A DNA stretch of 60,448 bases from a virus (taxonomy: Duplodnaviria > Caudoviricetes). The stretch lies in IMG/VR virus record IMGVR_UViG_3300021479_000021, positions 1-60,448 of that record, one strand, 5' to 3'. The notes below the pieces were generated by a model. The model saw only the letters and a program-made list of their open reading frames with translations. It had not been told where the DNA came from and searched no databases. The position numbers and the translations under genes were made by a program. Below are positions 3,362 through 47,897 of the stretch, in pieces; positions within the stretch are counted from its first letter, which is position 1; each line of letters starts with the position of its first letter.

Positions 3362-3922
3362 ATGGATAATAAACTATTAAACAAATGGGTACCTATTCTT
3401 AAATGTTTAGATATTGATCCCCTGAACTATACTAAGCTATCACAATTTTGTGAAACATATACTATAAAAAGAAGTGAAGAAATTGTTCCTACCGGCGATA
3501 GCTTACATCTAAATTCTGTAGGTGTACCCACTAATGTAGAAGGTGCTAATCTTAATCTTTTAGCTATGTGTATTAAAACTCTATCTAAATTAGATAATCT
3601 TGATCATATAATCTTCACTAATTTCATAAGTGATTTCGAAACATTAGAAACAAAAATAGTATGGTCGGTAGGTGAAATTTATATGATGACTGGTATAGAT
3701 ATGATAGAAAGTCAAGCTATGGAAGAAATATCTAAATTTCTATCAAAAGAAAACTTCAAAGATAATGAAAAAATATTAATAACATCCCCTATTGATGCTT
3801 GCACAATAGTAAAAAGTGATTCTAATCAACCCTTAGGATTTAAGTATTTGACTCGTTTCAAGAAAATAAATATTGATTATTCTACATCACAAACAGTGAT
3901 TGATACAAAAGAACAGGCTTAA
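3362..3922 (+). CDS. hypothetical protein
   Basis: 186-aa ORF with promoter motif at 3322-3347 and terminator at its end. Confidence 0.7.
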   Translation: MDNKLLNKWVPILKCLDIDPLNYTKLSQFCETYTIKRSEEIVPTGDSLHLNSVGVPTNVEGANLNLLAMCIKTLSKLDNLDHIIFTNFISDFETLETKIVWSVGEIYMMTGIDMIESQAMEEISKFLSKENFKDNEKILITSPIDACTIVKSDSNQPLGFKYLTRFKKINIDYSTSQTVIDTKEQA

Positions 3923-5705: not shown

Positions 5706-6056
5706 TTATGCTATAATCATCTTAGGTGTTTCTAACCTCCAATTGAGATGCTTCATCATCAGTACAGTGTATGGCCCACCTCTACCTATTGGTTTTGATA
5801 TTCTCCATTTTAAATGTTTCAATATCAGCATAGTTATAAAACTTTCGATCTCATAAGGCTGTAATCTATATTTCTTTTCAAAAACTGACCATATTGAATT
5901 ATAATCAACGGCTAAATATCCATTTTCTTTGTTATTATACATCACTACAAAATCATCCAAATCCTTAACCACAATATTACCTGGATTTTTAGAATCCAAA
6001 GATATAGATCCTAATTTAGATAAGAAAAACTCCTCCAATGATATTATTTTTTTCAT
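5706..6056 (-). CDS. small array-associated protein, copy 1 (reads through repeat-spacer-repeat)
   Basis: paralog of 15937..16284 and 26333..26617 (EEFFL.KL, VVMYN.KN.YL.VDY..IWSVFEK.Y, LKHL.WR..P twice). Confidence 0.8.
   Translation of the reverse strand: MKKIISLEEFFLSKLGSISLDSKNPGNIVVKDLDDFVVMYNNKENGYLAVDYNSIWSVFEKKYRLQPYEIESFITMLILKHLKWRISKPIGRGGPYTVLMMKHLNWRLETPKMIIA
5725..5826 (-). CRISPR. mini CRISPR-like array: 2 repeats, one 30-nt spacer
   Basis: repeat 5725-5760 is 32/36 and repeat 5791-5826 is 24/36 identical to the 16152 repeat; spacer 5761-5790. Confidence 0.7.
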
Positions 6057-7393: not shown

Positions 7394-7436
7394 ATTTTTA
7401 GTGGTTAGTTGAACAATATATGAGTTTATACGGATT

Positions 7437-7462
7437 TTATATCTAAATGTTTCAAAAAGTTT
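7437..7462 (-). promoter_or_regulatory. phage promoter motif AAACTTT-N12-GATATAA (near-identical copies at 8061-8086 and 11121-11146)
   Basis: conserved bipartite motif upstream of minus-strand genes. Confidence 0.65.
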
Positions 7463-7476
7463 TAGTTTTTTTACTA

Positions 7477-8013: not shown

Positions 8014-8070
8014 ATCCTTTAAGTAGTTTAGTTAAACAAATATATACATTTAAACGGAATTTATATCCAA

Positions 8071-8877
8071 ATGTTTCAAAAAGTTTTAAGTTTTTCTGAA
8101 TTCATAAAAGAAAATGCAAATATAGCTAGTTCTATTTCAGCTAAAGGTCTGGAATTCACCAACAAAATTAAATCTTTAGATACTGGTAAACCGCAGTACA
8201 AACATATGCCTTGCTATGAATTTGTATACAAATTTATGAAAATGTATAAACCTGACCTTCCATCAGCTATATTAACAGATCTTAAAATGGCATACAAAAA
8301 GGATATTGGAACCCTTCCAGCTAAAGAATATCTTGAATTAACAAAGAAGAGCTTGCAGGTACCAAGTCAACCAGAAACAATGAGAGGCCTTGAATATGTG
8401 AATCAAAAATATGGTATTGGTAGAATAGTAACTGTTGACCAGGCCAAAATAGGTGATGCAATATCTTTTTGGGTTTATCAATTTATAGAGTTCTCAAGAA
8501 AAGAGAAAAACTACTCCTTCCCTACTACAGAAGCAAGTTTTAAACAGTATTTATTAAAGAACAAATTAGTTGAATCTACATTACCAGAATGGTTAATTGA
8601 AGGTGCACGAATAGAATATGGTCACTATGGTATTATCTCAGATATTGATTCAGAATATTTATACCTAACATCTTCCGGAGAAAAGAATGGTTGTAATGGT
8701 ATATGGAATGGTGTACCTAAATCAGAGTGCTCGGAAAATTTTACTAAAATAAGAAAAGCTGATTTAAAGAAATTTCAAAACAAATCATTTGATGATATGC
8801 TTTTCAGATCTACTGACGAACTTACAAATAAAAGGATTCAAATAATAATGAGAAGTTATATACTGAATTTTATATAA
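8071..8877 (+). CDS. NlpC/P60-like protein with capsid-targeting-like N-terminus
   Basis: KVLSFSEFIKE; PCYEF, AKIGDAISFW, GHYG. Confidence 0.55.
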   Translation: MFQKVLSFSEFIKENANIASSISAKGLEFTNKIKSLDTGKPQYKHMPCYEFVYKFMKMYKPDLPSAILTDLKMAYKKDIGTLPAKEYLELTKKSLQVPSQPETMRGLEYVNQKYGIGRIVTVDQAKIGDAISFWVYQFIEFSRKEKNYSFPTTEASFKQYLLKNKLVESTLPEWLIEGARIEYGHYGIISDIDSEYLYLTSSGEKNGCNGIWNGVPKSECSENFTKIRKADLKKFQNKSFDDMLFRSTDELTNKRIQIIMRSYILNFI

Positions 8878-11084: not shown

Positions 11085-11150
11085 TTTATTTGATAGTTTA
11101 TTTAAACAACTATACGTATTTTATATACAAATGTTTCAAAAAGTTTTAAT

Positions 11151-11996
11151 TTAATAAAATTTATAGTCTGTTACCTTCTGACCCTTCATAATTGAAATCA
11201 TATAGTTTTGATATTTCTTCTGTGTCACGGTATAGTATATAGCATCCCTTCTATAAGTATCAAATTCTGGCTTATACTCATTATCTCTATCTTTACCGAG
11301 AACTATTATTATGTTATAGGCACCACCAAAATTCTTAACATAGAAACCAATATTATTCAAATCATATTTTAACAAACATGAGTGATGTCCAGGAGAAATA
11401 ATAAACTTAGCAGCCCAGTTGTACTTCTTATAATATTCAAGGGCCTCAGGACTATATTTGTTTCTCAACTTATCTGTACTAAATTCTCCGGTTACAATCT
11501 CTGTTACAATTTTAACATCTTTTTCAAAAGTTATATTCTTTTCAATTGTTTCACTTCTTTCTGATACACAATAAAACAGTTTAGAATTGATATAATGATT
11601 GATAGCAGAATTTGAATTAGATAGTTCTATACCATACATTTGATTATAATACTGACTTAGTTCGGCCTCAAGTGAAAGCTTCCTAGAATATTTAAGCTCT
11701 GTCATACCTTTACTTTGTCTATAATTATTTACAAATTCCATGATATTTTTATATTCATTCTGATATTGGATATTATTAGAATCAACATCTTTTATACGTT
11801 CATTCCAGAAATTAGTACTATCCTTCATTTGTTTCAAATAGTAATAATCCCATTCTTTATAGTTTTTAGGCTTTACAAGGACATTAAAATTAGCTTTATC
11901 AAATACCTTAGGATATTTAAGCCATTTCTTTACGGGACCCGTGAATGATATCAGGAGGCTGGTTATAAACAGAATGATTAGGATATACTTTTTCAT
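11151..11996 (-). CDS. secreted CAP/SCP-domain protein
   Basis: signal peptide; VNNYRQSKGMTELKYSRKLSLEA and SPGHHSCLL...IGF. Confidence 0.7.
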   Translation of the reverse strand: MKKYILIILFITSLLISFTGPVKKWLKYPKVFDKANFNVLVKPKNYKEWDYYYLKQMKDSTNFWNERIKDVDSNNIQYQNEYKNIMEFVNNYRQSKGMTELKYSRKLSLEAELSQYYNQMYGIELSNSNSAINHYINSKLFYCVSERSETIEKNITFEKDVKIVTEIVTGEFSTDKLRNKYSPEALEYYKKYNWAAKFIISPGHHSCLLKYDLNNIGFYVKNFGGAYNIIIVLGKDRDNEYKPEFDTYRRDAIYYTVTQKKYQNYMISIMKGQKVTDYKFY

Positions 11997-12996: not shown

Positions 12997-14250
12997 TTAA
13001 AGTATTATCAAATCCACAGTGGATTTGAAAGAATTTAAGCTTGAAGAACTACGAGATGAGTCGTAGAGAACTCTATAACTGTATAAGAGTTTCTTTTGTT
13101 TAAATGTATAATATAATTCTTTAAATGTGCTGAAAACCTCAGGTACCATTTCCTTCCAACGGGTAGGTACAAGATTCACACATTCTCTGTTTATACTATC
13201 ATATTCATTCAAACCTTTACTTAGAAGAAAACTTCTGTAAGTAATTTCTTTTGATGCAGCTACTGAATCGTAATCATTAATATTTTCTAACTGCCCAATA
13301 AAGGAGCTATATTCGGGCCTTACTTCTTTAAATTTAATATCATTCAAAGTAAGTCTTTTCTTTAAATTATTTACAAAATTATTACGGTTCCATGAGTTGA
13401 GTAATTTATTCAGTTTCTTACCTTTCTTATGATTCTTAGATTTCATATTTAAGTTTTCTAATCCAACACAAGATACCCTGTAGTGCTTACATAAGCTTAT
13501 TACATGTTTAGATATAGTAACGGTTTCATACAACTTTTTATTCGTTGAAGCTTCATTCAACTTTCTTAAATCAATGATCTCTTTATAAACTTCTTTCTTG
13601 TTATTATAATTAATATCCATAATAGAAAGACCTATGTAATTAGGATTTAAATCTAAACCTAAATATCTATTTCTCTTTGGTTCATATACTGATTTAGTGA
13701 GTAAAGAAGGATCATAACTGATCCATACATTACTATCTGAAATCATAAAGTTGAAATAAGCCTTCTTTTCTTTACAAAGTAATTGAATTTTATAAAGATT
13801 TGCTCTTTCACCTTTTGATAATTTTAATGGTATCAAATATTTAACACCACATTTAGGCTTGAATATCATCATATTATTTAAAATATCTAATTCAGCTTTC
13901 CTATTACCACAATGATCTAATCTACTCCCTCTAATTGAAATAGGAATATTTTTATTATAAGTATTTTTTCGCCCATATTTTTTATTAAAGAACTCTTTCT
14001 TACCACCAAAGTATATCTTTTCTTCTCTATTTAATTCAGATGCTATTTTAACAGCTTCTTTAATGAAGGAAGCATCAAGTAATTCAATATTTTTCATATT
14101 ATCTTTTACTAGCCATTCTAATTTCGAAACATTAGTTACTTTATCCTTCATGATTCTATTATAAGCAAACCTTACCACGGAACTATACTGCTCTATAAAC
14201 CTAATATCTTTAAATACACTTTGTGATTTCTTTATCGTTACTATTTGCAC
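12997..14250 (-). CDS. tnpB: TnpB-like RNA-guided RuvC nuclease (IS200/IS605/IS607 accessory protein), no tnpA nearby
   Basis: YSSVVRFAYNR; RuvC-I LGLDLNP, RuvC-II GLENLN, PEYSSFIG...DSVAASKEI; no zinc finger. Confidence 0.8.
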   Translation of the reverse strand: MQIVTIKKSQSVFKDIRFIEQYSSVVRFAYNRIMKDKVTNVSKLEWLVKDNMKNIELLDASFIKEAVKIASELNREEKIYFGGKKEFFNKKYGRKNTYNKNIPISIRGSRLDHCGNRKAELDILNNMMIFKPKCGVKYLIPLKLSKGERANLYKIQLLCKEKKAYFNFMISDSNVWISYDPSLLTKSVYEPKRNRYLGLDLNPNYIGLSIMDINYNNKKEVYKEIIDLRKLNEASTNKKLYETVTISKHVISLCKHYRVSCVGLENLNMKSKNHKKGKKLNKLLNSWNRNNFVNNLKKRLTLNDIKFKEVRPEYSSFIGQLENINDYDSVAASKEITYRSFLLSKGLNEYDSINRECVNLVPTRWKEMVPEVFSTFKELYYTFKQKKLLYSYRVLYDSSRSSSSLNSFKSTVDLIIL

Positions 14251-14598: not shown

Positions 14599-14880
14599 AT
14601 GCCTTACCTTACAGCCATTATAATTATATGTTTCATTATCTTTTTACTTCAAAAACGCAAAAAAGGAGATAAATTAAGTGATAAAATAAAATTGTTCATG
14701 GAAAATAATCCAGATGATAATGTAACAATCCTTGCAGCTAAAATAGCAAAGAGTGAAGATTTTAACTTTATCCCTTTTAATGTGGCTGAAGAATATTGTT
14801 ATCTTATAAATGACGATAAACCTGTTGATCATTTGGATGAAGAGTATGATATCAGTATTAACCTAAACAGAAATGATTAA
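14599..14880 (+). CDS. membrane-anchored hypothetical protein
   Basis: N-terminal TM helix. Confidence 0.6.
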   Translation: MPYLTAIIIICFIIFLLQKRKKGDKLSDKIKLFMENNPDDNVTILAAKIAKSEDFNFIPFNVAEEYCYLINDDKPVDHLDEEYDISINLNRND

Positions 14881-15658
14881 ACATATAAAAATAATCAATA
14901 ATAGAAAATCTCTACTCTGTACATTATGGGGTCCTAAAGAAATAAAACTTTCAGAAAATGTTAATATAATTTTCTCACCAAATGGTACAGGCAAATCTGT
15001 AATGTTAAAAGGTTTAGCTTATTTTACAAGTTGTCAAAAAGGTGGATGGTCCACAGGATTAGATCCATTAGAAGCTAAGCTAGAGGTATTTTCTCCTATG
15101 GAAATAGATTATGTTAAACTAAAAAACAAGAAATCTAAAATTGGAGCTATGAATATTGATTGGGATGGAACACCAACCTACTATTCTAAAGCCATGTTAG
15201 ATGACTCATCTCAGAATATGCAAAATGCTTTATTTGGAATGAATCAAGAAATGAGCCTTGAAGATGCTATAGTGATGCATAAACAAAACTTATCCCAAGG
15301 CCAAACTACAATAACACATTTAAATAACATATTCCAAAGTACCCTTCCTGATATAACATTAGAAAAACATACAGAATCTAATAATATCTGGCAGAAGGCC
15401 GGAAGAATTTTAAGTGATTATGTAAAAACATTACCAAGAGATGGTAAACCAACCATACTCTTAGATGAACCTGACAGAAGTTTTGACTTTATAAATCAAA
15501 GATTCTTCTGGGAAAATGTAAACAAGCTGGCCGAGAAGTTTCAACTGATCATAACTACACATAGTATGTTTGTGTTAACAGATATTGCTAAGGATTTCAA
15601 TATAATAGAAATCACTCCAGGGTATTATAAAAAAGCAAAAGAAATAATAAAAGTATAA
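14873..15658 (+). CDS. ABC/AAA-type ATPase
   Basis: Walker A SPNGTGKS, signature LSQGQ, Walker B ILLDEPD, H-loop TTH. Confidence 0.85.
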   Translation: MIKHIKIINNRKSLLCTLWGPKEIKLSENVNIIFSPNGTGKSVMLKGLAYFTSCQKGGWSTGLDPLEAKLEVFSPMEIDYVKLKNKKSKIGAMNIDWDGTPTYYSKAMLDDSSQNMQNALFGMNQEMSLEDAIVMHKQNLSQGQTTITHLNNIFQSTLPDITLEKHTESNNIWQKAGRILSDYVKTLPRDGKPTILLDEPDRSFDFINQRFFWENVNKLAEKFQLIITTHSMFVLTDIAKDFNIIEITPGYYKKAKEIIKV

Positions 15659-15742
15659 TATAGAAGAATTTCTGAATAAGAACTATAATATGGTTCAATT
15701 AGGAGCACCAGAATGGATAACAGGTAAAAGACCAGAACAATT

Positions 15743-15940
15743 ATGACAGATATATTTAAAAAAGATACCTTTTTGAAATTCAATTCAGAAGATAATAGAA
15801 TCGAACAAATCATTGATGTTGATAATGAAACACTCTTTACAAAAAAAAGTAATGATAAAGTCGTCAAATACAAAGAAAAAGATATTCGAGTAAAGATCTA
15901 CAATGGCCTTTGTACATTACATAAAAATTATCCAGTATGA
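15743..15940 (+). CDS. hypothetical protein
   Basis: ORF overlapping (ATGA) the next gene. Confidence 0.55.
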   Translation: MTDIFKKDTFLKFNSEDNRIEQIIDVDNETLFTKKSNDKVVKYKEKDIRVKIYNGLCTLHKNYPV

Positions 15941-16284
15941 CAGCGGAGGATTTTTTGATATTGAAGTTAGGGAGTGTTTCTTTAGACAAAGAATATCCAG
16001 GTAATATCATTATTAAAGATTCGGAAGGATATACTGTGATGTACAATAGAAAAAATCGCTATTTAGAGGTTGATTATATAAATATATGGTCAGTTTTTGA
16101 GAAGCAATATAACATGAATTATACTGATATACAATTATTTATAACTAACATGATGTTGAAGCACCTCAATTGGAGGCCAGAAACACCTTGTTACCAGTGG
16201 GTATGGGAAAACTTTCCGATGTTGAAGCACCTCAATTGGAGGCCAGAAACACCTTTATCAATTGTAGATACACCAGGACCATAG
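15937..16284 (+). CDS. small array-associated protein, copy 2 (C-terminus encoded by array)
   Basis: paralog of copies 1 and 3; MLKHLNWRPETP encoded by repeats 1 and 2. Confidence 0.8.
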   Translation: MTAEDFLILKLGSVSLDKEYPGNIIIKDSEGYTVMYNRKNRYLEVDYINIWSVFEKQYNMNYTDIQLFITNMMLKHLNWRPETPCYQWVWENFPMLKHLNWRPETPLSIVDTPGP

Positions 16285-16450
16285 ATGTTGAAGCACCTCA
16301 ATTGGAGGCCAGAAACACCTTTATTGGCAAGTTTAATACCTTCTTCAATGATGTTGAAGCACCTCAATTGGAGGCCAGAAACACCACCATGTTCTCAGGC
16401 TTTAAAAGAAATGAGATGTTGAAACACCTCAAATGGAAAACACAAACAAG
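16152..16450 (+). CRISPR. CRISPR-like array, 36-nt repeat GATGTTGAAGCACCTCAATTGGAGGCCAGAAACACC (type VI-B-like), 4 spacers
   Basis: identical repeats at 16152, 16218, 16284, 16350 and a degenerate one at 16415; unique spacers of 30, 30, 30 and 29 nt; CCTC/GAGG and TGTT/AACA stems. Confidence 0.92.
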
Positions 16451-19802: not shown

Positions 19803-20246
19803 CTACAATAACATTCTATTAATCTCTATATCATTATATTCAGTATGTTGTTCGATCCATTTATCAATTGTAGATACACCAGGACCATACCGGCCAATTT
19901 GTAAAGGAATATAATCAATCCGGTAGTCTTCAAAAAACAAAGCTTCATTGTTTAATAATACAAATAAATCATTTTCACCTATATTACCAGTATATTCAAT
20001 TAAAATATCAATATCAGAATTAGATCTGTAGTTACCAATAACTCTACTACCAACAAGAGCTACCTCAAGCACTTTTATACCAGAAGATAACTCCATATCC
20101 AAGACATGTTCTAAATGTACAATTATCTCATCAAAAATTATATCACAATTTTCCAGTGTATCTAAATCCGGATCCGAAATAATTTTATTAGGTTGCGACT
20201 CCTTACGATCAAAATCTTCATCAAATGAATCATTAAAAATCTCCAT
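19803..20246 (-). CDS. minimal nucleotidyltransferase (Pol-beta superfamily)
   Basis: LVGSRVIG...SDIDILIEY...IDYIP. Confidence 0.85.
   Translation of the reverse strand: MEIFNDSFDEDFDRKESQPNKIISDPDLDTLENCDIIFDEIIVHLEHVLDMELSSGIKVLEVALVGSRVIGNYRSNSDIDILIEYTGNIGENDLFVLLNNEALFFEDYRIDYIPLQIGRYGPGVSTIDKWIEQHTEYNDIEINRMLL
19860..19889 (+). other. protospacer identical to array spacer 2 (16254-16283)
   Basis: TTTATCAATTGTAGATACACCAGGACCATA, 30/30. Confidence 0.95.
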
Positions 20247-26300: not shown

Positions 26301-26384
26301 TTGAGGTGCTTCAAGAACTACCTTTTTTGCCGTTATACACTCCACGTAGGTTTTTCAGGCCTACAATTGAGGTGCTTCAAGAAC
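26301..26384 (-). CRISPR. mini CRISPR-like array: full repeat, 30-nt spacer, half repeat
   Basis: repeat 26349-26384 is 31/36 identical to the 16152 repeat; spacer 26319-26348; 18-nt partial repeat 26301-26318. Confidence 0.7.
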
Positions 26385-26617
26385 ATATCTATTATAAACG
26401 TTTGAATGTCTTTATAATTCATACGATATTCCTTTTCAAAAATTGACCATACATGTTCATAATCAACATATAAGTAGCTATTTTTTCTATTGTACATCAC
26501 AACATATCCTTCACTATCTTTAATAATAATAATATTATCACAGTATCTTTCTTTTTTTATAGAAATAGTAAACTCACTTATTTTATTAATAAAAAATTCC
26601 TCAGCAGATTCTTTCAT
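26333..26617 (-). CDS. small array-associated protein, copy 3
   Basis: IIIKDSEGYVVMYNRKNSYLYVDY..VWSIFEK...FLKHLNCRPEKP. Confidence 0.8.
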   Translation of the reverse strand: MKESAEEFFINKISEFTISIKKERYCDNIIIIKDSEGYVVMYNRKNSYLYVDYEHVWSIFEKEYRMNYKDIQTFIIDMFLKHLNCRPEKPTWSV

Positions 26618-26959: not shown

Positions 26960-27652
26960 TTATTTGGACTCAGTATTTTCATCTGGTTTATTCTTACCAG
27001 ATTTCTTTGCTTCTTTTTCATCAGCAATAGATTTAGCCTTTTCTTCTAAAAATTTATTAAGATCCTTCATAGAACCGCTAAAACCACCAGTTTTACTACC
27101 ATCTTTATCAAGTTTTTTATTCTCACGACCAAATTTAGGCATATCCTCAAAACCTAAATCAAATCTTAGTTTTCTATAAAAACTTTCCATAAGAGACAAG
27201 CTGTTACTAGCAGACTTATTTATTTTTTCTAACTCACCCATACCCTTGTATATGATTTCAAAATGTCTTGGTGATTGATCACCTTGCTCCATAAGATTAA
27301 GTTGCTTTAAAAGAACCTGCTGAGCTACAGAAGATAAAAAATCTAGAGAACCCTGATTTTTCGCATCTCTTTCTATACGACTTTTTATATACGATTGTTG
27401 AAGAACATTCTCATCACCATCAAGCCATAGAGAAGCAAGATTGTCTATTATTTCTTTACTATTTACTAAACAAATTGCTAATTCATCCTTATATTTAGAA
27501 ATCTCAGGTGTATCCAAATTATTAAGATCAGGAAAATCTGTTGCTGTAACCAACATACCTTTAGGATTATCACCAAGATCCTGTTCTTTAGCAGTTTCCT
27601 GTATATCATTCATTCTATCTTTAAAATTCTTTTTGTCCTCTTTATCAGGCAT
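26960..27652 (-). CDS. hypothetical helical protein, possible terminase small subunit
   Basis: adjacent to terminase; SPRHFEII...GSMKDLNKFL resembles T4 gp16-type motifs. Confidence 0.45.
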   Translation of the reverse strand: MPDKEDKKNFKDRMNDIQETAKEQDLGDNPKGMLVTATDFPDLNNLDTPEISKYKDELAICLVNSKEIIDNLASLWLDGDENVLQQSYIKSRIERDAKNQGSLDFLSSVAQQVLLKQLNLMEQGDQSPRHFEIIYKGMGELEKINKSASNSLSLMESFYRKLRFDLGFEDMPKFGRENKKLDKDGSKTGGFSGSMKDLNKFLEEKAKSIADEKEAKKSGKNKPDENTESK

Positions 27653-44217: not shown

Positions 44218-44247
44218 AAAAAAGGAGCTCTATTGGGCTCCTTTTTT
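44218..44247. terminator. bidirectional terminator
   Basis: AAAAAAGGAGCTC-tatt-GGGCTCCTTTTTT. Confidence 0.75.
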
Positions 44248-47200
44248 ATTTAGTCGTTCTTTCTGTTTAAGATCAACTTTAGCTTTTTTAATAGCTTCCT
44301 TCAAATATTCTCTTACATCATCTTCAAGATTTTTACCAGTCTTTAACTCATTGTAAATATATTGTGGATCAGCACCTTGTTGTTCAATTAAATATTTTGT
44401 TTTTTCTAGTGATGCAACCTGGTCACCACTCCAAGATTTTCTAGCTGCGTTAATACCAAGATCATTAATATTGATTATCTTACCTTTGTATTTATTAAAC
44501 AAAAATTCTAATCCTTCATCAGATTCACCATTATAAGCATATGATTCAACCAACTTATTTATTTCTTCATCTGTTAATTGTGGACCATTTTCTATCAGGT
44601 ATTTCATTATTTCATATGAGTATGTTGAGTATAACATTTGTTTAAATGTGTATTTAAACTTAAGATCCTCTACAAAATATTTAATGATTCCCATCATGTC
44701 ATTAATATTTTCATTGGATTGTTTTTTGACAGCCTCAGCAAAAGATGATATAATTATTTCAGATTTTTCTGATTTATTAAAATGATAACTTTTTGTTTCA
44801 ATGACTTTTCGATCCTTATAGTAGGCACCTTTACTTATAAGATATTTGACAAGTTCCAAATTACCACCTTTAATAGCACTTATTAAAGCAGTTCCGTTAT
44901 TAGATTCAAAACTTCTTGAACCAGAATTATATTTATTTAAGTCAACACCTAAACTTTCTAAAAATTTAACTATATCTGTATGACCATTGACTGAGGCCTT
45001 CAATAAATATAAGTTCAGATCTTTTTTATCTAATATATTATATTTCTGTCCTAACTTAAGAATATCTAAATGACCATTTGATGCAGCATATTCAAATATA
45101 GAATTACTTAAAATATTATCCTTAAATTTTTTGTACCCATTCTCAAGTGCAAAATTTAATATGTCAGTATAACCATTGTAACCAATCGTAAAATAATCTA
45201 AATCTTTTAAGGATGCACCATTATTAAATAATAATTTAACCATTTCTAAATCATCATTTTTACAAGCCTCATATATAGGAGCATGAGAATGTTTATCAGG
45301 TTCATTTACAGGACAACCATTTTTAATTAAATAAGCAACAAGTTTTGTATTATCAACAATTTTCTCTTCGTTTTCTTTACTATATTGGTCCTTTATTGCT
45401 TGAGTTATAGGAGCACTTCCAAGTTTCTTCAAATCAAGATTTTCTTTATCAATAAGTTTCTTTAATTGATCATATTTTTTATTTCTAATTGTATAACTTA
45501 CCCATTTATTTAAGGTATCCTTACATATTTCAGATAAATCATTATTTCTTTCATAAAAGAAATCCATGATCTCATGAACATCCTTATCACTTGCGTATTG
45601 TATTATTGAATAATTATTATCAGGAGAAACCTTTTCACCGTAGTTAGTTTTTTTTAAACCTGATGGTTCAGCACCAGCTTCAAGAAACATTAAAAGTATT
45701 TTATTATTTAGATCTGTTTCTTCATCATAACGACCTGGGATAGTTGATAGAAATATTGAATTAGAAGAATTTGGTAAATTTGGATTTGCACCTTTATCAA
45801 GTAAAAACTTAATTTTATCTATATCTTTTTCATGTACAGACATACCCAATAATTCACCACCATCAACATTTATATCACCACCTCTTTTTAAGTATTCATA
45901 AAATCTTTTTTCATCATTTAAATGGTAGAAGAATTTTAATTCGTCTATTTCCTTCTTGTCAGAATTTTCTTCATCAAAGCAAGGCTCCGCACCTAAATCA
46001 AACAATTTTTTAGCTAATTCTACATTGAAAGAAAAATCTGGATTATTGATTAATTTTACCGGAATAGCTTGTATAGTAATAAACATTGGTGTTTCTCTAA
46101 AACGATTATAACTTATATTCATATTCAAGACACTTTTATCAAAAGCTAAAAATTTATCAATAAGTTCTTCATTTTTAAGATTAATAACATCAGGAAAAAA
46201 GGCCTTTATAGTTTCTTTATCGAATTTATAATTTTCAATATAAAAATTAATAAGTGGTATTTGAATATCTTGGGTTATATTTTTATTTCTATTTTCAATA
46301 GATAATTGTGAAGCTATATTATTCTTATCTTCATCAGAGAGCTCTTTAATTAGATTAGGAAACTGTTTGGATAAAAACATGAACAGTTTTATAGCTTGTA
46401 CCTTAGAAGCATAAACAATTTGATTTTGTGTGCTTATGGCTTTATTTGGTCTGATATTTTTAATATCTGTTAATGCGTATACCTCATCACTTGATCTGTA
46501 ACCTTTAGTGAGCAAATATTTATAAAAATCAACATCATCCATAGCTATAGATAAAGTTAAAGGAAATTTATAGTTTGTATGAATATGACAACCTTTATCA
46601 TACAAAAAAATAATAAAATCTTTGTTTTTCTGTGTCTGCATGGCTACATAATCAATATATTCATAATTAACAGAATTAACTTCAATAAATCCGTCTATTT
46701 TATAACCATAATCATTTATTAATTTGTTAAATAGTTCTTCATCACAATTAACGAGGGCTAAATTCATTACAGCATTATCATCAGTAAATGGATTCAAACC
46801 GTTATCGAATAAATAAAATATTTTTTCATTATCACTTGTTCTTATAGCTGCCTTAAACTCATATAATAATTCAATCTCTTTTTGTTTATCTTCTTTCTCT
46901 GAGATACTCATTGGTTTTAAAACATTCAGTGGAATATTATACTGTTTAGCATATTGATCAAAATCTCTGATTTGAGTATCATCTTTAAAATGTGCAGCAT
47001 TATTATTGTTACTTGGTTTGTATACATTACCATCTTGATCAATTGTAACACCAACTCTTGTGTGAATGTCAGAGAAAGGTACAGCAAAATCCCATATAGA
47101 ATATTGGGCATTAAATTTATATTCAGCTCCTACATAAGTATCCCAGTGTGTTTTAGAATCTTTTATACACCAGGATGTATCACTTAGTAAAGCTTTAGAA

Positions 47201-47844
47201 GCTGTAAAAGTATAAATTCTTGCTATAAGTAATTCTCTTTCAGGATTAGCATAAACTAATTCTGCTCCTTGTGTATTAAGAATTTTGTTTTTTATAAGAT
47301 CATAATCCCATTCCTGATTAACAAAACCTTCAAGGCTTTCTATTAATTCTGTTAGTGTTTTATAACGTGCCAGCTTTTTAATAAAAGCTTGTTGAGTTTC
47401 CTTGGGTAGTTTATTTAATTCTAATGCTAAGTTATCTACTTTACTTTTAGTATTTGTGTCAGCATCTCTATACCAATTTTTTTGTGCTGGTAATAAAGCA
47501 TTAAAAAATAGTTTAGCTTTTCTGTAGCTTTGAAGATCCCTTAGATCATCTTCAAGTTCTTCAAAATTTTGATATTGTATAACCGGCTTAGGTAACTGTC
47601 CAAGTAAATCTTTTAATTCAAACAAATTATCACTGAGTCTTTCAAGATCAATCATAGGGATCTTATCATCAAATCTGAATTTGGTAAACAGACCTAAAAA
47701 TCCAGGTCTTTTTTTAAGCCAGACCTGTATTTGTAAAAAATCAGGATCCTTGGGATCAATATTATTTTTTGTAATAACCGACTTAGCTTTTTGCATATCT
47801 TCATTCATGAGGTTGAATGAATCAAAATTCAGTACAAATGACAT
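44230..47844 (-). CDS. large paralog-family protein B with C-terminal ankyrin repeats
   Basis: SWCI domain, then ACKNDDLEMVKLLFNNGA, AASNGHLDILK, ASVNGHTDIVKFL, AIKGGNLELVKYLISKGA; probable start MSFVLNFDSF. Confidence 0.85.
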   Translation of the reverse strand: MSFVLNFDSFNLMNEDMQKAKSVITKNNIDPKDPDFLQIQVWLKKRPGFLGLFTKFRFDDKIPMIDLERLSDNLFELKDLLGQLPKPVIQYQNFEELEDDLRDLQSYRKAKLFFNALLPAQKNWYRDADTNTKSKVDNLALELNKLPKETQQAFIKKLARYKTLTELIESLEGFVNQEWDYDLIKNKILNTQGAELVYANPERELLIARIYTFTASKALLSDTSWCIKDSKTHWDTYVGAEYKFNAQYSIWDFAVPFSDIHTRVGVTIDQDGNVYKPSNNNNAAHFKDDTQIRDFDQYAKQYNIPLNVLKPMSISEKEDKQKEIELLYEFKAAIRTSDNEKIFYLFDNGLNPFTDDNAVMNLALVNCDEELFNKLINDYGYKIDGFIEVNSVNYEYIDYVAMQTQKNKDFIIFLYDKGCHIHTNYKFPLTLSIAMDDVDFYKYLLTKGYRSSDEVYALTDIKNIRPNKAISTQNQIVYASKVQAIKLFMFLSKQFPNLIKELSDEDKNNIASQLSIENRNKNITQDIQIPLINFYIENYKFDKETIKAFFPDVINLKNEELIDKFLAFDKSVLNMNISYNRFRETPMFITIQAIPVKLINNPDFSFNVELAKKLFDLGAEPCFDEENSDKKEIDELKFFYHLNDEKRFYEYLKRGGDINVDGGELLGMSVHEKDIDKIKFLLDKGANPNLPNSSNSIFLSTIPGRYDEETDLNNKILLMFLEAGAEPSGLKKTNYGEKVSPDNNYSIIQYASDKDVHEIMDFFYERNNDLSEICKDTLNKWVSYTIRNKKYDQLKKLIDKENLDLKKLGSAPITQAIKDQYSKENEEKIVDNTKLVAYLIKNGCPVNEPDKHSHAPIYEACKNDDLEMVKLLFNNGASLKDLDYFTIGYNGYTDILNFALENGYKKFKDNILSNSIFEYAASNGHLDILKLGQKYNILDKKDLNLYLLKASVNGHTDIVKFLESLGVDLNKYNSGSRSFESNNGTALISAIKGGNLELVKYLISKGAYYKDRKVIETKSYHFNKSEKSEIIISSFAEAVKKQSNENINDMMGIIKYFVEDLKFKYTFKQMLYSTYSYEIMKYLIENGPQLTDEEINKLVESYAYNGESDEGLEFLFNKYKGKIININDLGINAARKSWSGDQVASLEKTKYLIEQQGADPQYIYNELKTGKNLEDDVREYLKEAIKKAKVDLKQKERLNKKGAQ

Positions 47845-47897
47845 TAATTTTATTGAGTTTGAATTATATATCAAATTTTACTAATATACAATACAAG

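What the first reader, a model, noticed from the sequence alone, without database searches (positions are those of the whole stretch)
16149..16284. Dual-coding repeat: array units are 66 nt (22 codons) and write the protein's C-terminus
The repeat translates as MLKHLNWRPETP and completes the protein in all three copies. Because 36+30 is a multiple of 3, translation continues through spacers until a stop appears: at the spacer 2/repeat 3 junction in copy 2, inside the spacer in copy 3, and after repeat 2 in copy 1. In copy 1 the first repeat has decayed to 24/36 nt yet still encodes ILKHLKWRISKP, which hints at protein-level selection. Spacer gain would therefore change the protein tail, and repeat processing would cut the gene's own mRNA (possible autoregulation). 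The repeat may also have originated from, or been captured by, the coding sequence.
Basis: partly seen in the sequence, partly recalled or inferred. Interest (0 to 1): 0.75.

Follow-up and report, generated by a model that had tools for sequence, protein, structure and literature searches.

The report
Phage gene ending in CRISPR array
A small phage gene ends in the first repeat of a CRISPR-type array that has no cas genes nearby, so the same 36 bases encode a folded part of the protein and serve as the array's repeat, and the same arrangement recurs across a large family of phage genes.

Summary
At 16152-16450 there is a CRISPR-type array: four identical 36-nt repeats plus one degenerate repeat, with 29-30-nt unique spacers. 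Repeat 1 forms the last 12 codons (MLKHLNWRPETP) of the conserved part of ORF 15937-16284. Two paralogs in the window (5706-6056, 26333-26617, both minus) end the same way.

- **Coding:** all 11 DNA-level copies in six records read repeat 1 in the same frame, with pN/pS about 0.5. With a 135-sequence alignment AlphaFold2 gives pLDDT 95.7, and the repeat-encoded residues finish helix 3 and the C-terminal strap.
- **Family:** a profile search found 1178 cluster representatives. None of 135 aligned members stops before the motif, and 49 of 157 repeat it in frame 21-22 residues later.
- **True array:** repeats are identical within each array. Periods are 65-67 nt in relatives, so the 22-codon reading is incidental. 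Eight of 33 spacers match phage DNA exactly edge to edge, seven of them in the same record.
- **No cas genes:** none were found, including in one complete 51-kb phage.

My reading is a cas-less phage array that depends on a trans-acting (probably host) CRISPR system, with a dual-coding first repeat. Its function (decoy, anti-CRISPR or inter-phage guide) is inferred only.

The parts
15937..16284 (+). ORF B (115 aa). Residues 1-84 are the conserved domain and residues 73-84 (MLKHLNWRPETP) are encoded by repeat 1. Residues 85-115 are read from spacer 1, repeat 2 and spacer 2.
   Evidence: AlphaFold2 model of residues 1-84 with pLDDT 95.7
16152..16187 (+). Repeat 1 (36 nt): the leader-proximal repeat, which is also the last 12 codons of the conserved domain
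   Evidence: edges set by protospacer matches
16188..16217 (+). Spacer 1 (30 nt); no match found
16218..16253 (+). Repeat 2, identical to repeat 1
16254..16283 (+). Spacer 2 (30 nt), identical 30/30 to 19860-19889 in the same window
   Evidence: (family D15)
16284..16319 (+). Repeat 3, identical
16320..16349 (+). Spacer 3 (30 nt); no match found
16350..16385 (+). Repeat 4, identical over the 36 nt
16386..16414 (+). Spacer 4 (29 nt); no match found
16415..16450 (+). Terminal repeat 5, degenerate mainly in its 3' half (76% identity over the 41-nt family copy; 8-9 mismatches)
19860..19889 (.). Protospacer of spacer 2, inside the minus-strand nucleotidyltransferase-domain gene 19803-20246. An array transcript made with ORF B would be antisense to that mRNA.
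5706..6056 (-). Paralog A (116 aa, 50% identical to B). It reads a decayed repeat 1 (about 5791-5826), spacer 5761-5790 and an intact repeat 2 (5725-5760).
26333..26617 (-). Paralog C (94 aa, 63% identical to B). Repeat 1 is at 26349-26384 and the stop lies inside the spacer (26319-26348). A truncated repeat follows at about 26301-26318.

Best explanation
The window comes from a large tailed phage, probably of a Bacteroidota host. It carries three copies of a module made of a small gene plus a CRISPR-type mini-array.

**The gene.** It encodes an 84-residue alpha-beta4-alpha-alpha domain of unknown function that belongs to a large phage protein family.

**The dual-use repeat.** The last 36 nt of the gene's conserved part are also the leader-proximal repeat of the array. 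Those bases therefore serve two roles. As codons they finish helix 3 and the C-terminal strap of the protein. As DNA or RNA they are the unit copied each time a spacer of about 30 nt is inserted behind it, which is the chemistry of a CRISPR integrase.

**The protein tail.** Translation runs on from repeat 1 into whatever spacer lies next, until a chance stop. The tail after ...TP is therefore variable and unstructured. It is a by-product, not a selected feature.

**Source of the machinery.** The phages examined carry no cas genes, so integration and any use of the transcripts must depend on a machinery supplied in trans, most likely by the host. Many spacers are copies of the phage's own genome. 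That is what is expected if prespacers are taken from the most abundant DNA in an infected cell and inserted into a phage-borne array.

**Shown and inferred.**
- Shown here: the anatomy, the coding status, the family-wide recurrence, the spacer origins, and the failure to find cas genes in the records examined.
- Inferred: a trans-acting integrase, co-transcription of array and gene, and the biological role. The likeliest role is interference with, or exploitation of, the host CRISPR system. Options are repeat decoy or anti-CRISPR, spacer sink, or guides against related phages.
For: **It is a true array**
- Four identical repeats with unique spacers, none in shuffles.
- Terminal repeats are degenerate or truncated in 7 of the 10 arrays listed.
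- Periods are 65-67 nt in relatives.
- Eight of 33 spacers match phage DNA at 29-30 of 29-30 positions, and each match ends exactly at the repeat edges. Seven lie in the same record and one in a related record.
- Closely related genes (B against L034, synonymous difference pS 0.16) share no spacer.

**It is a real gene**
- Three paralogs in the window at 50-63% identity.
- Body pN/pS is 0.50, with pairwise omega 0.17-0.74.
- AlphaFold2 with 135 sequences gives pLDDT 95.7 and pTM 0.83. Helix 62-77 covers the repeat-encoded residues M73-L77. Mean pLDDT is 89 over residues 81-84 and 95 over 71-80.

**It recurs across a family**
- 1178 representatives at E<=1e-3 and 239 at E<=1e-10.
- None of 135 members ends before the motif. 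H76 is kept in 107, T83 in 114 and P84 in 115 of 135.
- 49 of 157 proteins repeat the motif in frame, 48 at 22 residues and 1 at 21. A further 11 show the frame-shifted reading of a second repeat.
- Distant loci L041, L042 and L043 have different 36-nt repeats in the same position and frame.

**No cas genes found**
- No Cas1 in G003-G005.
- No TnpB family in G001-G005.
- No Cas family among the largest ORFs of G000, G001, G002 and G005.
- G003 is a complete 51,061-bp phage with terminal repeats. Twelve of its ORFs of 300 aa or more were scanned against Pfam. Nine are ordinary structural, replication or integration genes and three matched no family.

**Host hint.** BACON plus type IX secretion sorting domain, and a T4-type large terminase.
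Against: - No bacterial array with this repeat was found. A 20-nt degenerate core scanned over 185,579 species genomes gave only 3 single, unrelated matches. Known viral mini-arrays carry repeats identical to those of the host (review PMC11656645, passages).
- Rfam has no matching CRISPR repeat family.
- A conserved repeat RNA structure is not supported. RNAalifold predicts no pairs on 13 repeats. For my named structure, 81.7% of cells pair against 77.8% in shuffles, and the covariation score was reached by 61 of 500 shuffles.
- Exact self-matching spacers are hard to reconcile with active interference.
- The records are metagenome assemblies. An independent assembly (Logan contigs) breaks at the repeats and cannot confirm that spacer 2 and its protospacer lie on one molecule.
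- All records except G003 are incomplete (14-73% by CheckV), so an unseen phage effector is not excluded.
- Five ORFs of 305-391 aa in the complete phage G003 were not scanned.
- No expression or processing data exist.
Confidence: 0.6

Rival explanations
1. The arrays are by-products. The selected feature would be a repeat mimic at the 3' end of the mRNA, an RNA anti-CRISPR of the solitary-repeat kind, possibly paired with an anti-CRISPR protein encoded by the same gene. The host integrase occasionally mistakes this mimic for a real leader-repeat junction and inserts spacers, mostly phage-derived. The spacers themselves would have no function.
For: - Arrays are short, with 1-5 spacers.
- Several copies keep only one repeat plus a remnant (G2_a, L039, W_C).
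- Seven of the 8 matched spacers are self-derived.
- Self-matching spacers are tolerated.
- Solitary repeat units and mini-arrays in phages sit beside acr genes (PMC10651486 figure legend; preprint 10.1101/2023.03.03.530964, section 'Mini-arrays in viral genomes').
Against: - In copy A the downstream repeat stays close to the family consensus (4 mismatches) while the translated first repeat has 13. That suggests nucleotide-level selection on a non-first repeat.
- Spacer content turns over completely between close relatives, which implies frequent integration rather than rare accidents.
- No cognate host repeat was found.
Confidence: 0.2
2. The phage supplies its own effector. For this window that would be the TnpB-related 417-aa protein at 12997-14250, transcribed divergently 1.9 kb from array B. 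The module would then be a new miniature type V-like system.
For: - Weak TnpB-related matches: TIGR01766 at E 2.8e-7 and NF040570 at E 9.8e-6.
- The gene is close to array B.
- Phage-encoded miniature Cas12 systems exist (10.1101/2025.01.20.633832, abstract and sections 5 and 7).
Against: - Both matches are below the curated cut-offs.
- Copies A and C in the same window have no such neighbour.
- G001 holds only a 23-residue remnant 44 kb from its array, and G002 holds none.
- The TnpB family model finds nothing in G001-G005, including the complete phage G003.
Confidence: 0.07
3. This is not CRISPR at all. It would be a protein with C-terminal tandem repeats of 22 residues (12 conserved plus 10 variable) produced by duplication, with the variable linkers diversifying the protein tail.
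For: - 48 of the 49 in-frame cases have exactly a 22-residue offset.
- Long ORFs run through several units (P0012, P0013, P0001).
- G003 copy 1 reads through three repeats into a hydrophobic tail.
- Stops are fewer in the ORF frame (5 of 22 spacers) than in frame +1 (13 of 22).
Against: - Repeats are identical at the nucleotide level while the intervening segments share nothing.
- Periods of 65 and 67 nt break the frame.
- Stops occur inside spacers, so downstream repeats go untranslated.
- Intervening segments are exact copies of unrelated genes elsewhere in the genome, on either strand.
- Frame +2 is as poor in stops (4 of 22) as the ORF frame.
- The share of in-frame read-through fits chance by my own estimate.
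Confidence: 0.05
4. The ORF is an over-call on a conserved non-coding CRISPR leader.
For: CRISPR leaders are conserved between arrays of one genome (established knowledge). No Pfam or PHROG family matches the ORF.
Against: - The frame is open in 11 of 11 copies in a genome of 29% G+C.
- pN/pS is about 0.5.
- The AlphaFold2 model is confident.
- 239 representatives match at E<=1e-10.
- BFVD holds structural look-alikes among phage proteins, probability 0.96-0.99.
Confidence: 0.02

Closest known systems
Virus-borne cas-less CRISPR mini-arrays (review PMC11656645, passages read; preprint 10.1101/2023.03.03.530964, section 'Mini-arrays in viral genomes')
   Same: Short arrays on phage genomes without cas genes, presumed to use host machinery. 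Spacers match viral DNA.
   Different: - Here the first repeat is the in-frame 3' end of a conserved protein gene, across a large family.
- No host repeat was found.
- Most matched spacers (7 of 8) hit the carrier's own record rather than a rival virus.
Solitary repeat units acting as RNA anti-CRISPRs, Racr (PMC10651486, abstract and passages)
   Same: CRISPR-repeat copies carried by phages, often next to small anti-defence genes. Copies with a single repeat (G2_a) look like such units.
   Different: - Racrs are described as small non-coding RNAs with their own promoter, whereas this repeat is translated.
- That survey reports units for all CRISPR types except type VI.
Type VI-B (Cas13b) arrays (bioRxiv 10.1101/092577, passages; PMC11662929, passages)
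   Same: - 36-nt repeat, 30-nt spacers and a 66-nt unit.
- Complementary repeat ends.
- Loci without Cas1 and Cas2.
- The host phylum fits.
- Relatives L042 and L043 end in CAAC.
   Different: - The window's repeat starts GAUGUUG and ends AACACC, not GUUG...CAAC.
- The loop is AAUUG, not U-rich.
- No Cas13b gene was seen.
- Only 2 of the 6 protospacers with a clear gene strand would be antisense to the mRNA.
Ectopic ('neo-CRISPR') spacer integration at repeat-like genomic sites (recalled work; only search listings naming the term were seen)
   Same: An integrase can seed an array wherever a repeat-like sequence lies, including inside genes.
   Different: Here the association is ancient and family-wide, and repeat and protein motif co-vary. 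It is not a sporadic accident.

Membership tests
CRISPR array (generic) | Identical direct repeats of 23-47 nt separated by unique spacers of similar length | tested here: met
   Four identical 36-nt repeats with spacers of 30, 30, 30 and 29 nt. The same holds in 9 further arrays.
CRISPR array (generic) | Spacers are copies of mobile-element DNA (protospacers), with match edges at the repeat edges | tested here: met
   Eight of 33 spacers match at 29-30 of 29-30 positions.
CRISPR array (generic) | Degenerate leader-distal repeat | tested here: met
   Window repeat 5 has 8-9 mismatches. The last repeats of W_C, G1_a, G1_b, L034 and L035 are degenerate or truncated in their 3' part.
CRISPR array (generic) | Adjacent cas genes | tested here: not met
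   No Cas1. No Cas family among the large ORFs. The complete phage G003 shows none among the 12 of its 17 ORFs of 300 aa or more that were scanned.
CRISPR array (generic) | Non-coding A+T-rich leader upstream of repeat 1 | tested here: not met
   The sequence upstream of repeat 1 is a conserved coding sequence.
Type VI-B (Cas13b) array | 36-nt repeat and 30-nt spacer | tested here: met
Type VI-B (Cas13b) array | Repeat ends 5'-GUUG and CAAC-3', with a U-rich open loop | tested here: not met
   The window repeat is GAUGUUG...AACACC with loop AAUUG. L042 and L043 have GGUG...CAAC.
Type VI-B (Cas13b) array | Cas13b gene beside the array or in the host | tested here: inconclusive
   None appears among the phage ORFs scanned. 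The host is unknown, and I had no Cas13b model accession to search with.
Type VI-B (Cas13b) array | Spacers complementary to target mRNA | tested here: inconclusive
   Two are antisense, four are sense and two are ambiguous, assuming the array is transcribed with the ORF.
Viral mini-array or solitary repeat unit | Repeat identical to that of the host's CRISPR array | tested here: not met
   The degenerate 20-nt core gave 3 single chance matches in 185,579 species genomes. The host may be unsampled, or its repeat may differ within the core.
Viral mini-array or solitary repeat unit | Located on a virus genome, 1-2 spacers, no cas genes | tested here: met
   Copies A and C have one spacer each. 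Copy B has four and G005 has four and five.
TnpB/Cas12-linked array | RuvC nuclease gene consistently next to the array | tested here: not met
   Present only near array B in the window. Absent from G001-G005.
Protein tandem repeat (false CRISPR) | Period a multiple of 3, repeats diverging at synonymous sites, linkers related to each other | tested here: not met
   Periods are 65-67 nt. Repeats are identical at the nucleotide level. Spacers are unrelated to each other and copied from other genes.

The most novel reading that the evidence does not exclude
A phage protein family of more than a thousand clusters has co-evolved with a CRISPR repeat. One 36-nt element is both an integral piece of the protein fold and the integration and processing unit of an array. 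The phage would use this module as a combined protein and RNA counter-measure. It would draw the host's adaptation machinery onto the phage's own array as a spacer sink, and tie up the effector with repeat-bearing transcripts. That would explain why most matched spacers are copies of the carrier's own genome. Alternatively, this may be a case where a CRISPR repeat family arose from a coding sequence.
Probability: 0.3. Interest if true: 0.9.

Novelty: new variant of a known kind. Interest (0 to 1): 0.8.

Why it matters
- **A constraint not described in the papers I read.** CRISPR leaders and repeats are treated as non-coding. Here one element must satisfy a protein fold, a repeat function and an integration site at once, across a large phage family. 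This links array evolution to protein evolution and gives a natural system for asking which repeat positions are needed at the nucleic-acid level.
- **Self-derived spacers.** Phage-borne arrays filled mainly with the phage's own sequence do not fit the accepted role of viral mini-arrays, which is to target rival viruses. They point to an unexplored interaction with the adaptation step of CRISPR immunity, or to tolerated self-targeting. Tolerated self-targeting is a classic pointer to anti-CRISPR activity.
- **Practical consequences.** The family offers many candidate anti-CRISPR or Cas-interacting small proteins. Array finders that discard repeats inside genes will miss this class.

Tried and rejected
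**Searches that found nothing useful**
- **Host repeat.** One scan of genome contigs with a degenerate 20-nt core gave 3 unrelated single matches. I had no Bacteroidota genome handle to centre genome search on; the control genomes lack the T9SS domain.
- **Rfam.** Nothing useful on the window, L043 or L042.
- **Fold of the protein.** Foldseek against PDB gave no match at E<=1e-3 for either model.
- **Families and cultured phages.** Pfam, NCBIfam and PHROGs name no family for the ORF. ESM Atlas scores were 0.81 or less. INPHARED phages gave no tblastn match for the window ORF or P0054.
- **More loci.** P0010 and P0009 were not found in viral contigs. Alignment A4 was too diverse for the search for related loci, so I used the smaller A5.
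- **Expression.** No RNA holder was listed; one DNA run was found. Its Logan contigs break at the repeats and do not bridge spacer 2 and the protospacer.
- **Promoters and terminators.** No more sites than in shuffles.
- **Protospacer flanks.** No shared motif among the 8 protospacers.

**Readings considered and rejected**
- Cas13b-type RNA targeting as the reading of spacer 2: it is antisense to the nucleotidyltransferase mRNA, but 4 of the 6 protospacers with a clear gene strand are sense.
- The TnpB-like neighbour as effector.

**Literature**
- Searches, and the passages read, showed no description of an array fused in frame to a conserved gene. Subscription journals and supplements were not searchable.
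The genomic context of most of the 1178 clusters could therefore not be seen.
Full report
**What the window is.** The window is an IMG/VR virus record of 60,448 bp, classed as linear with a CheckV completeness of 31%. G+C is about 29%. It encodes a T4-type large terminase. It also encodes a protein with BACON domains and a type IX secretion sorting domain. That combination points to a large tailed phage of a Bacteroidota host. The host assignment is an inference from domain content.

- A 35-nt core occurs four times without mismatch at 16153, 16219, 16285 and 16351, and never in 100 shuffles. A fifth, degenerate copy follows at 16415. Spacings are 66, 66, 66 and 65.
- ORF 15937-16284 (115 aa) runs through repeat 1, spacer 1, repeat 2 and spacer 2. 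It stops at a TAG formed at the spacer 2/repeat 3 junction.
- tblastn finds two paralogs on the minus strand, at 6044-5712 (50% identity) and 26608-26300 (58%).
- As ORFs these are 5706-6056 (116 aa) and 26333-26617 (94 aa). Each ends in the same motif, followed by one spacer and a second repeat that is intact in A and truncated in C.

**It is a CRISPR-type array, not a protein tandem repeat.**
- Repeats are identical at the nucleotide level within each array, while the intervening segments share nothing.
- The last repeat is degenerate or truncated, mainly in its 3' half.
- In related records the periods are 65, 66 and 67 nt.
- The intervening segments are copies of other genes. Spacer 2 is identical over 30 of 30 nt to 19860-19889, inside the minus-strand nucleotidyltransferase-domain gene 19803-20246.
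- Across the 33 spacers I extracted from the related records, 8 have a match of 29-30 of 29-30 nt (22, 11).
- Every match ends exactly at the repeat edges. Seven lie in the same record and one in a related record.
- In G005 alone, 5 of 9 spacers match G005 itself. Three of these carry a single C/T difference, at spacer positions 13, 10 and 10.
- These matches fix the window repeat as the 36 nt GATGTTG...AACACC.

**The ORF is a real gene, and the repeat is part of it.**
- Eleven DNA-level copies from six records all read repeat 1 in the same frame.
- Summed over pairs, pN/pS is 0.50 for the body and 0.46 for repeat 1.
- Among pairs with the same residue, codons differ in 26% of body cells, 24% of the 12 codons upstream of the repeat, and 31% of repeat 1. 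The translated first repeat therefore evolves like ordinary coding sequence.
- Examples: B against L036 has 4 synonymous and 0 non-synonymous changes in repeat 1. B against G2_a has 4 and 2.
- Copy A's first repeat keeps ILKHLKWRISKP with 13 nucleotide differences from the canonical repeat, while its untranslated second repeat has only 4.
- Some third positions never vary. The Leu, Glu and Thr codons of the repeat show 0 differing pairs, and the first G of the repeat is invariant in 13 repeats. This hints at an added nucleotide-level constraint. The sample is small and the sequences are related.
- AlphaFold2 with 12 sequences gave pLDDT 64.8. With 135 family sequences it gave pLDDT 95.7 and pTM 0.83 for residues 1-84.
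- The model is helix, four strands, then two helices. Helix 62-77 includes the repeat-encoded residues M73-L77. Mean pLDDT is 95 over residues 71-80 and 89 over residues 81-84.
- In the 115-residue model the spacer-encoded tail was below pLDDT 50.

**The arrangement is family-wide.**
- The word-based search found only 11 close relatives. All close ones read into the repeat, and several repeat the motif.
- A profile search of 1.84 billion representatives found 1178 proteins at E<=1e-3, 239 at E<=1e-10 and 6 at E<=1e-30.
- Of 135 aligned members of 80-175 aa, none ends before the motif. H76 is kept in 107, T83 in 114 and P84 in 115. The profile contained the motif, which may bias this count.
- Of the 157 proteins in hand, 49 repeat at least 8 of 10 motif residues. 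The offset is 22 residues in 48 and 21 in one. Another 11 carry the frame-shifted reading of a second repeat.
- By my own estimate, an in-frame share near one third is what random 29-31-nt spacers would give. I see no selection for reading through.
- Stops occur in 5 of 22 spacers in the ORF frame, 13 of 22 in frame +1 and 4 of 22 in frame +2. This does not single out the ORF frame.
- Distant members fetched as DNA (L041, L042, L043) have quite different 36-nt repeats in the same place and frame, encoding VEEHFRCTGITP, VEEHFKLEGVTT and VNKHLGCEGFTT.
- A divergent paralog in G001 has its own repeat variant, with 8-9 differences. It is identical in the first two copies, and the third departs only at its 3' end. 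This is what duplication of the local first repeat at each insertion would give.
- Closely related genes (B against L034, pS 0.16) share no spacer, so arrays turn over quickly.

**No cas genes were found.**
- G003 is a complete 51,061-bp phage with terminal repeats and two tandem modules.
- Twelve of its 17 ORFs of 300 aa or more were scanned against Pfam. Nine matched tape measure, tail, collar, portal, capsid, DNA polymerase A, VapE-like primase-helicase, SNF2 helicase or serine recombinase, and three matched no family. Five ORFs of 305-391 aa were not scanned.
- Cas1 is absent from G003-G005, and the TnpB model from G001-G005.
- The largest ORFs of G000, G001, G002 and G005 hit no Cas family.
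- The 417-aa ORF 12997-14250 near array B is weakly TnpB-related, below the curated cut-offs. It is not linked to the other arrays. I read it as an incidental insertion element.

**Which system the arrays work with is open.**
- The unit of a 36-nt repeat plus a 30-nt spacer, complementary repeat ends and the lack of Cas1-Cas2 match the published description of type VI-B arrays (10.1101/092577, passages; PMC11662929, passages). L042 and L043 repeats end in CAAC.
- However, the window repeat has neither the GUUG...CAAC ends nor a U-rich loop. No consensus RNA structure is predicted for 13 repeats, and support for my named structure is weak.
- Only 2 of the 6 protospacers with a clear gene strand would be antisense to the mRNA.
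- A scan of 185,579 species genomes with a degenerate repeat core found no array.
- In the AT-rich group, spacer G+C (39%) exceeds genome G+C (29%). None of 5000 random draws reached the observed mean. G005 shows no such excess: 42.9% against 43.2%.

**Interpretation.**
- The anatomy is that of a CRISPR array whose leader is a gene and whose first repeat is the gene's last 12 conserved codons.
- Each insertion behind repeat 1 changes the residues after ...TP. This follows from the structure, and the tail looks like an untended by-product.
- Because the phages lack cas genes, integration and any processing must come from a machinery in trans, most plausibly the host's. Self-derived spacers fit prespacer capture from the replicating phage.
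- Tolerated self-matches suggest that interference is blocked or irrelevant in these infections. That fits a decoy, anti-CRISPR or spacer-sink role.
- These functional statements are inferences. No RNA data exist for this element. An independent assembly breaks at the repeats and so cannot confirm linkage of spacer 2 and its target.

**Comparison with the literature.** Viral mini-arrays and solitary repeat units are known (PMC11656645, passages; PMC10651486, abstract and passages; 10.1101/2023.03.03.530964, passages). In the texts I read and the six searches I ran, I found no description of an array fused in frame to a conserved protein gene, nor of phage arrays filled mainly with the carrier's own sequence. 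Subscription journals and supplementary files were outside reach.

**Verdict.** The 22-codon periodicity is incidental, and autoregulation is untested. I score interest at 0.8 and class this as a new variant of a known kind (virus-borne cas-less arrays).

Noticed in passing
window 12997-14250 (-): A 417-aa ORF weakly related to TnpB: TIGR01766 at E 2.8e-7 and NF040570 at E 9.8e-6, both below cut-off. By eye it has RuvC-like motifs but no CxxC zinc finger. A 23-residue N-terminal remnant, 83% identical, lies in G001 at 115275-115346.
   Followed up: partly
window 14599-16284 (+): ORF B is the last gene of a same-strand run: a 93-aa ORF, a 261-aa SMC/ABC-type ATPase with AAA_21 and weak PtuA-like matches, a 65-aa ORF, then ORF B. 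The stop of the 65-aa ORF overlaps the ATG of ORF B (ATGA at 15937-15940), which suggests coupled translation.
   Followed up: no
window 7415-7471, 8039-8095, 11099-11155: Three copies of a 57-nt repeat at 75-100% identity, with a conserved ...AAATGTTTCAAAAAGTTTTA... core (family D2). They may be phage promoters or regulatory sites.
   Followed up: no
window 44230-47874 (-): A 1214-aa protein with several ankyrin repeats, which is unusual in a phage.
   Followed up: no
proteins P0012 (760 aa) and P0013 (588 aa): Single ORFs containing five tandem copies of the domain, each followed by repeat-spacer-repeat in frame without stops. They may be fused modules or come from a genome poor in stop codons.
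   Followed up: no
L041 460-1221 (G003 copy 1): The ORF reads through three repeats and continues for about 55 codons into a hydrophobic, membrane-helix-like tail. This may be chance (about 7% by my estimate) or a real extended protein.
   Followed up: partly
G005 protospacers (27607-27636, 3406-3435, 160646-160675): The three imperfect self-matches each differ by one C/T transition, at spacer positions 13, 10 and 10, which is the middle of the spacer. This may be strain variation or escape from self-targeting.
   Followed up: no
window 15834-16167 in run X1: Summed contig depth is 93-140 over the ORF body, against about 14 on the flanks. The sample therefore holds many related copies or strains of this gene.
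   Followed up: no
L038 3010-3393: A distant paralog lies directly upstream of a canonical copy. It keeps MISKHLKW at the protein level with very different codons, and has a long C-terminal extension containing a decayed repeat-like stretch about 72 nt downstream.
   Followed up: partly
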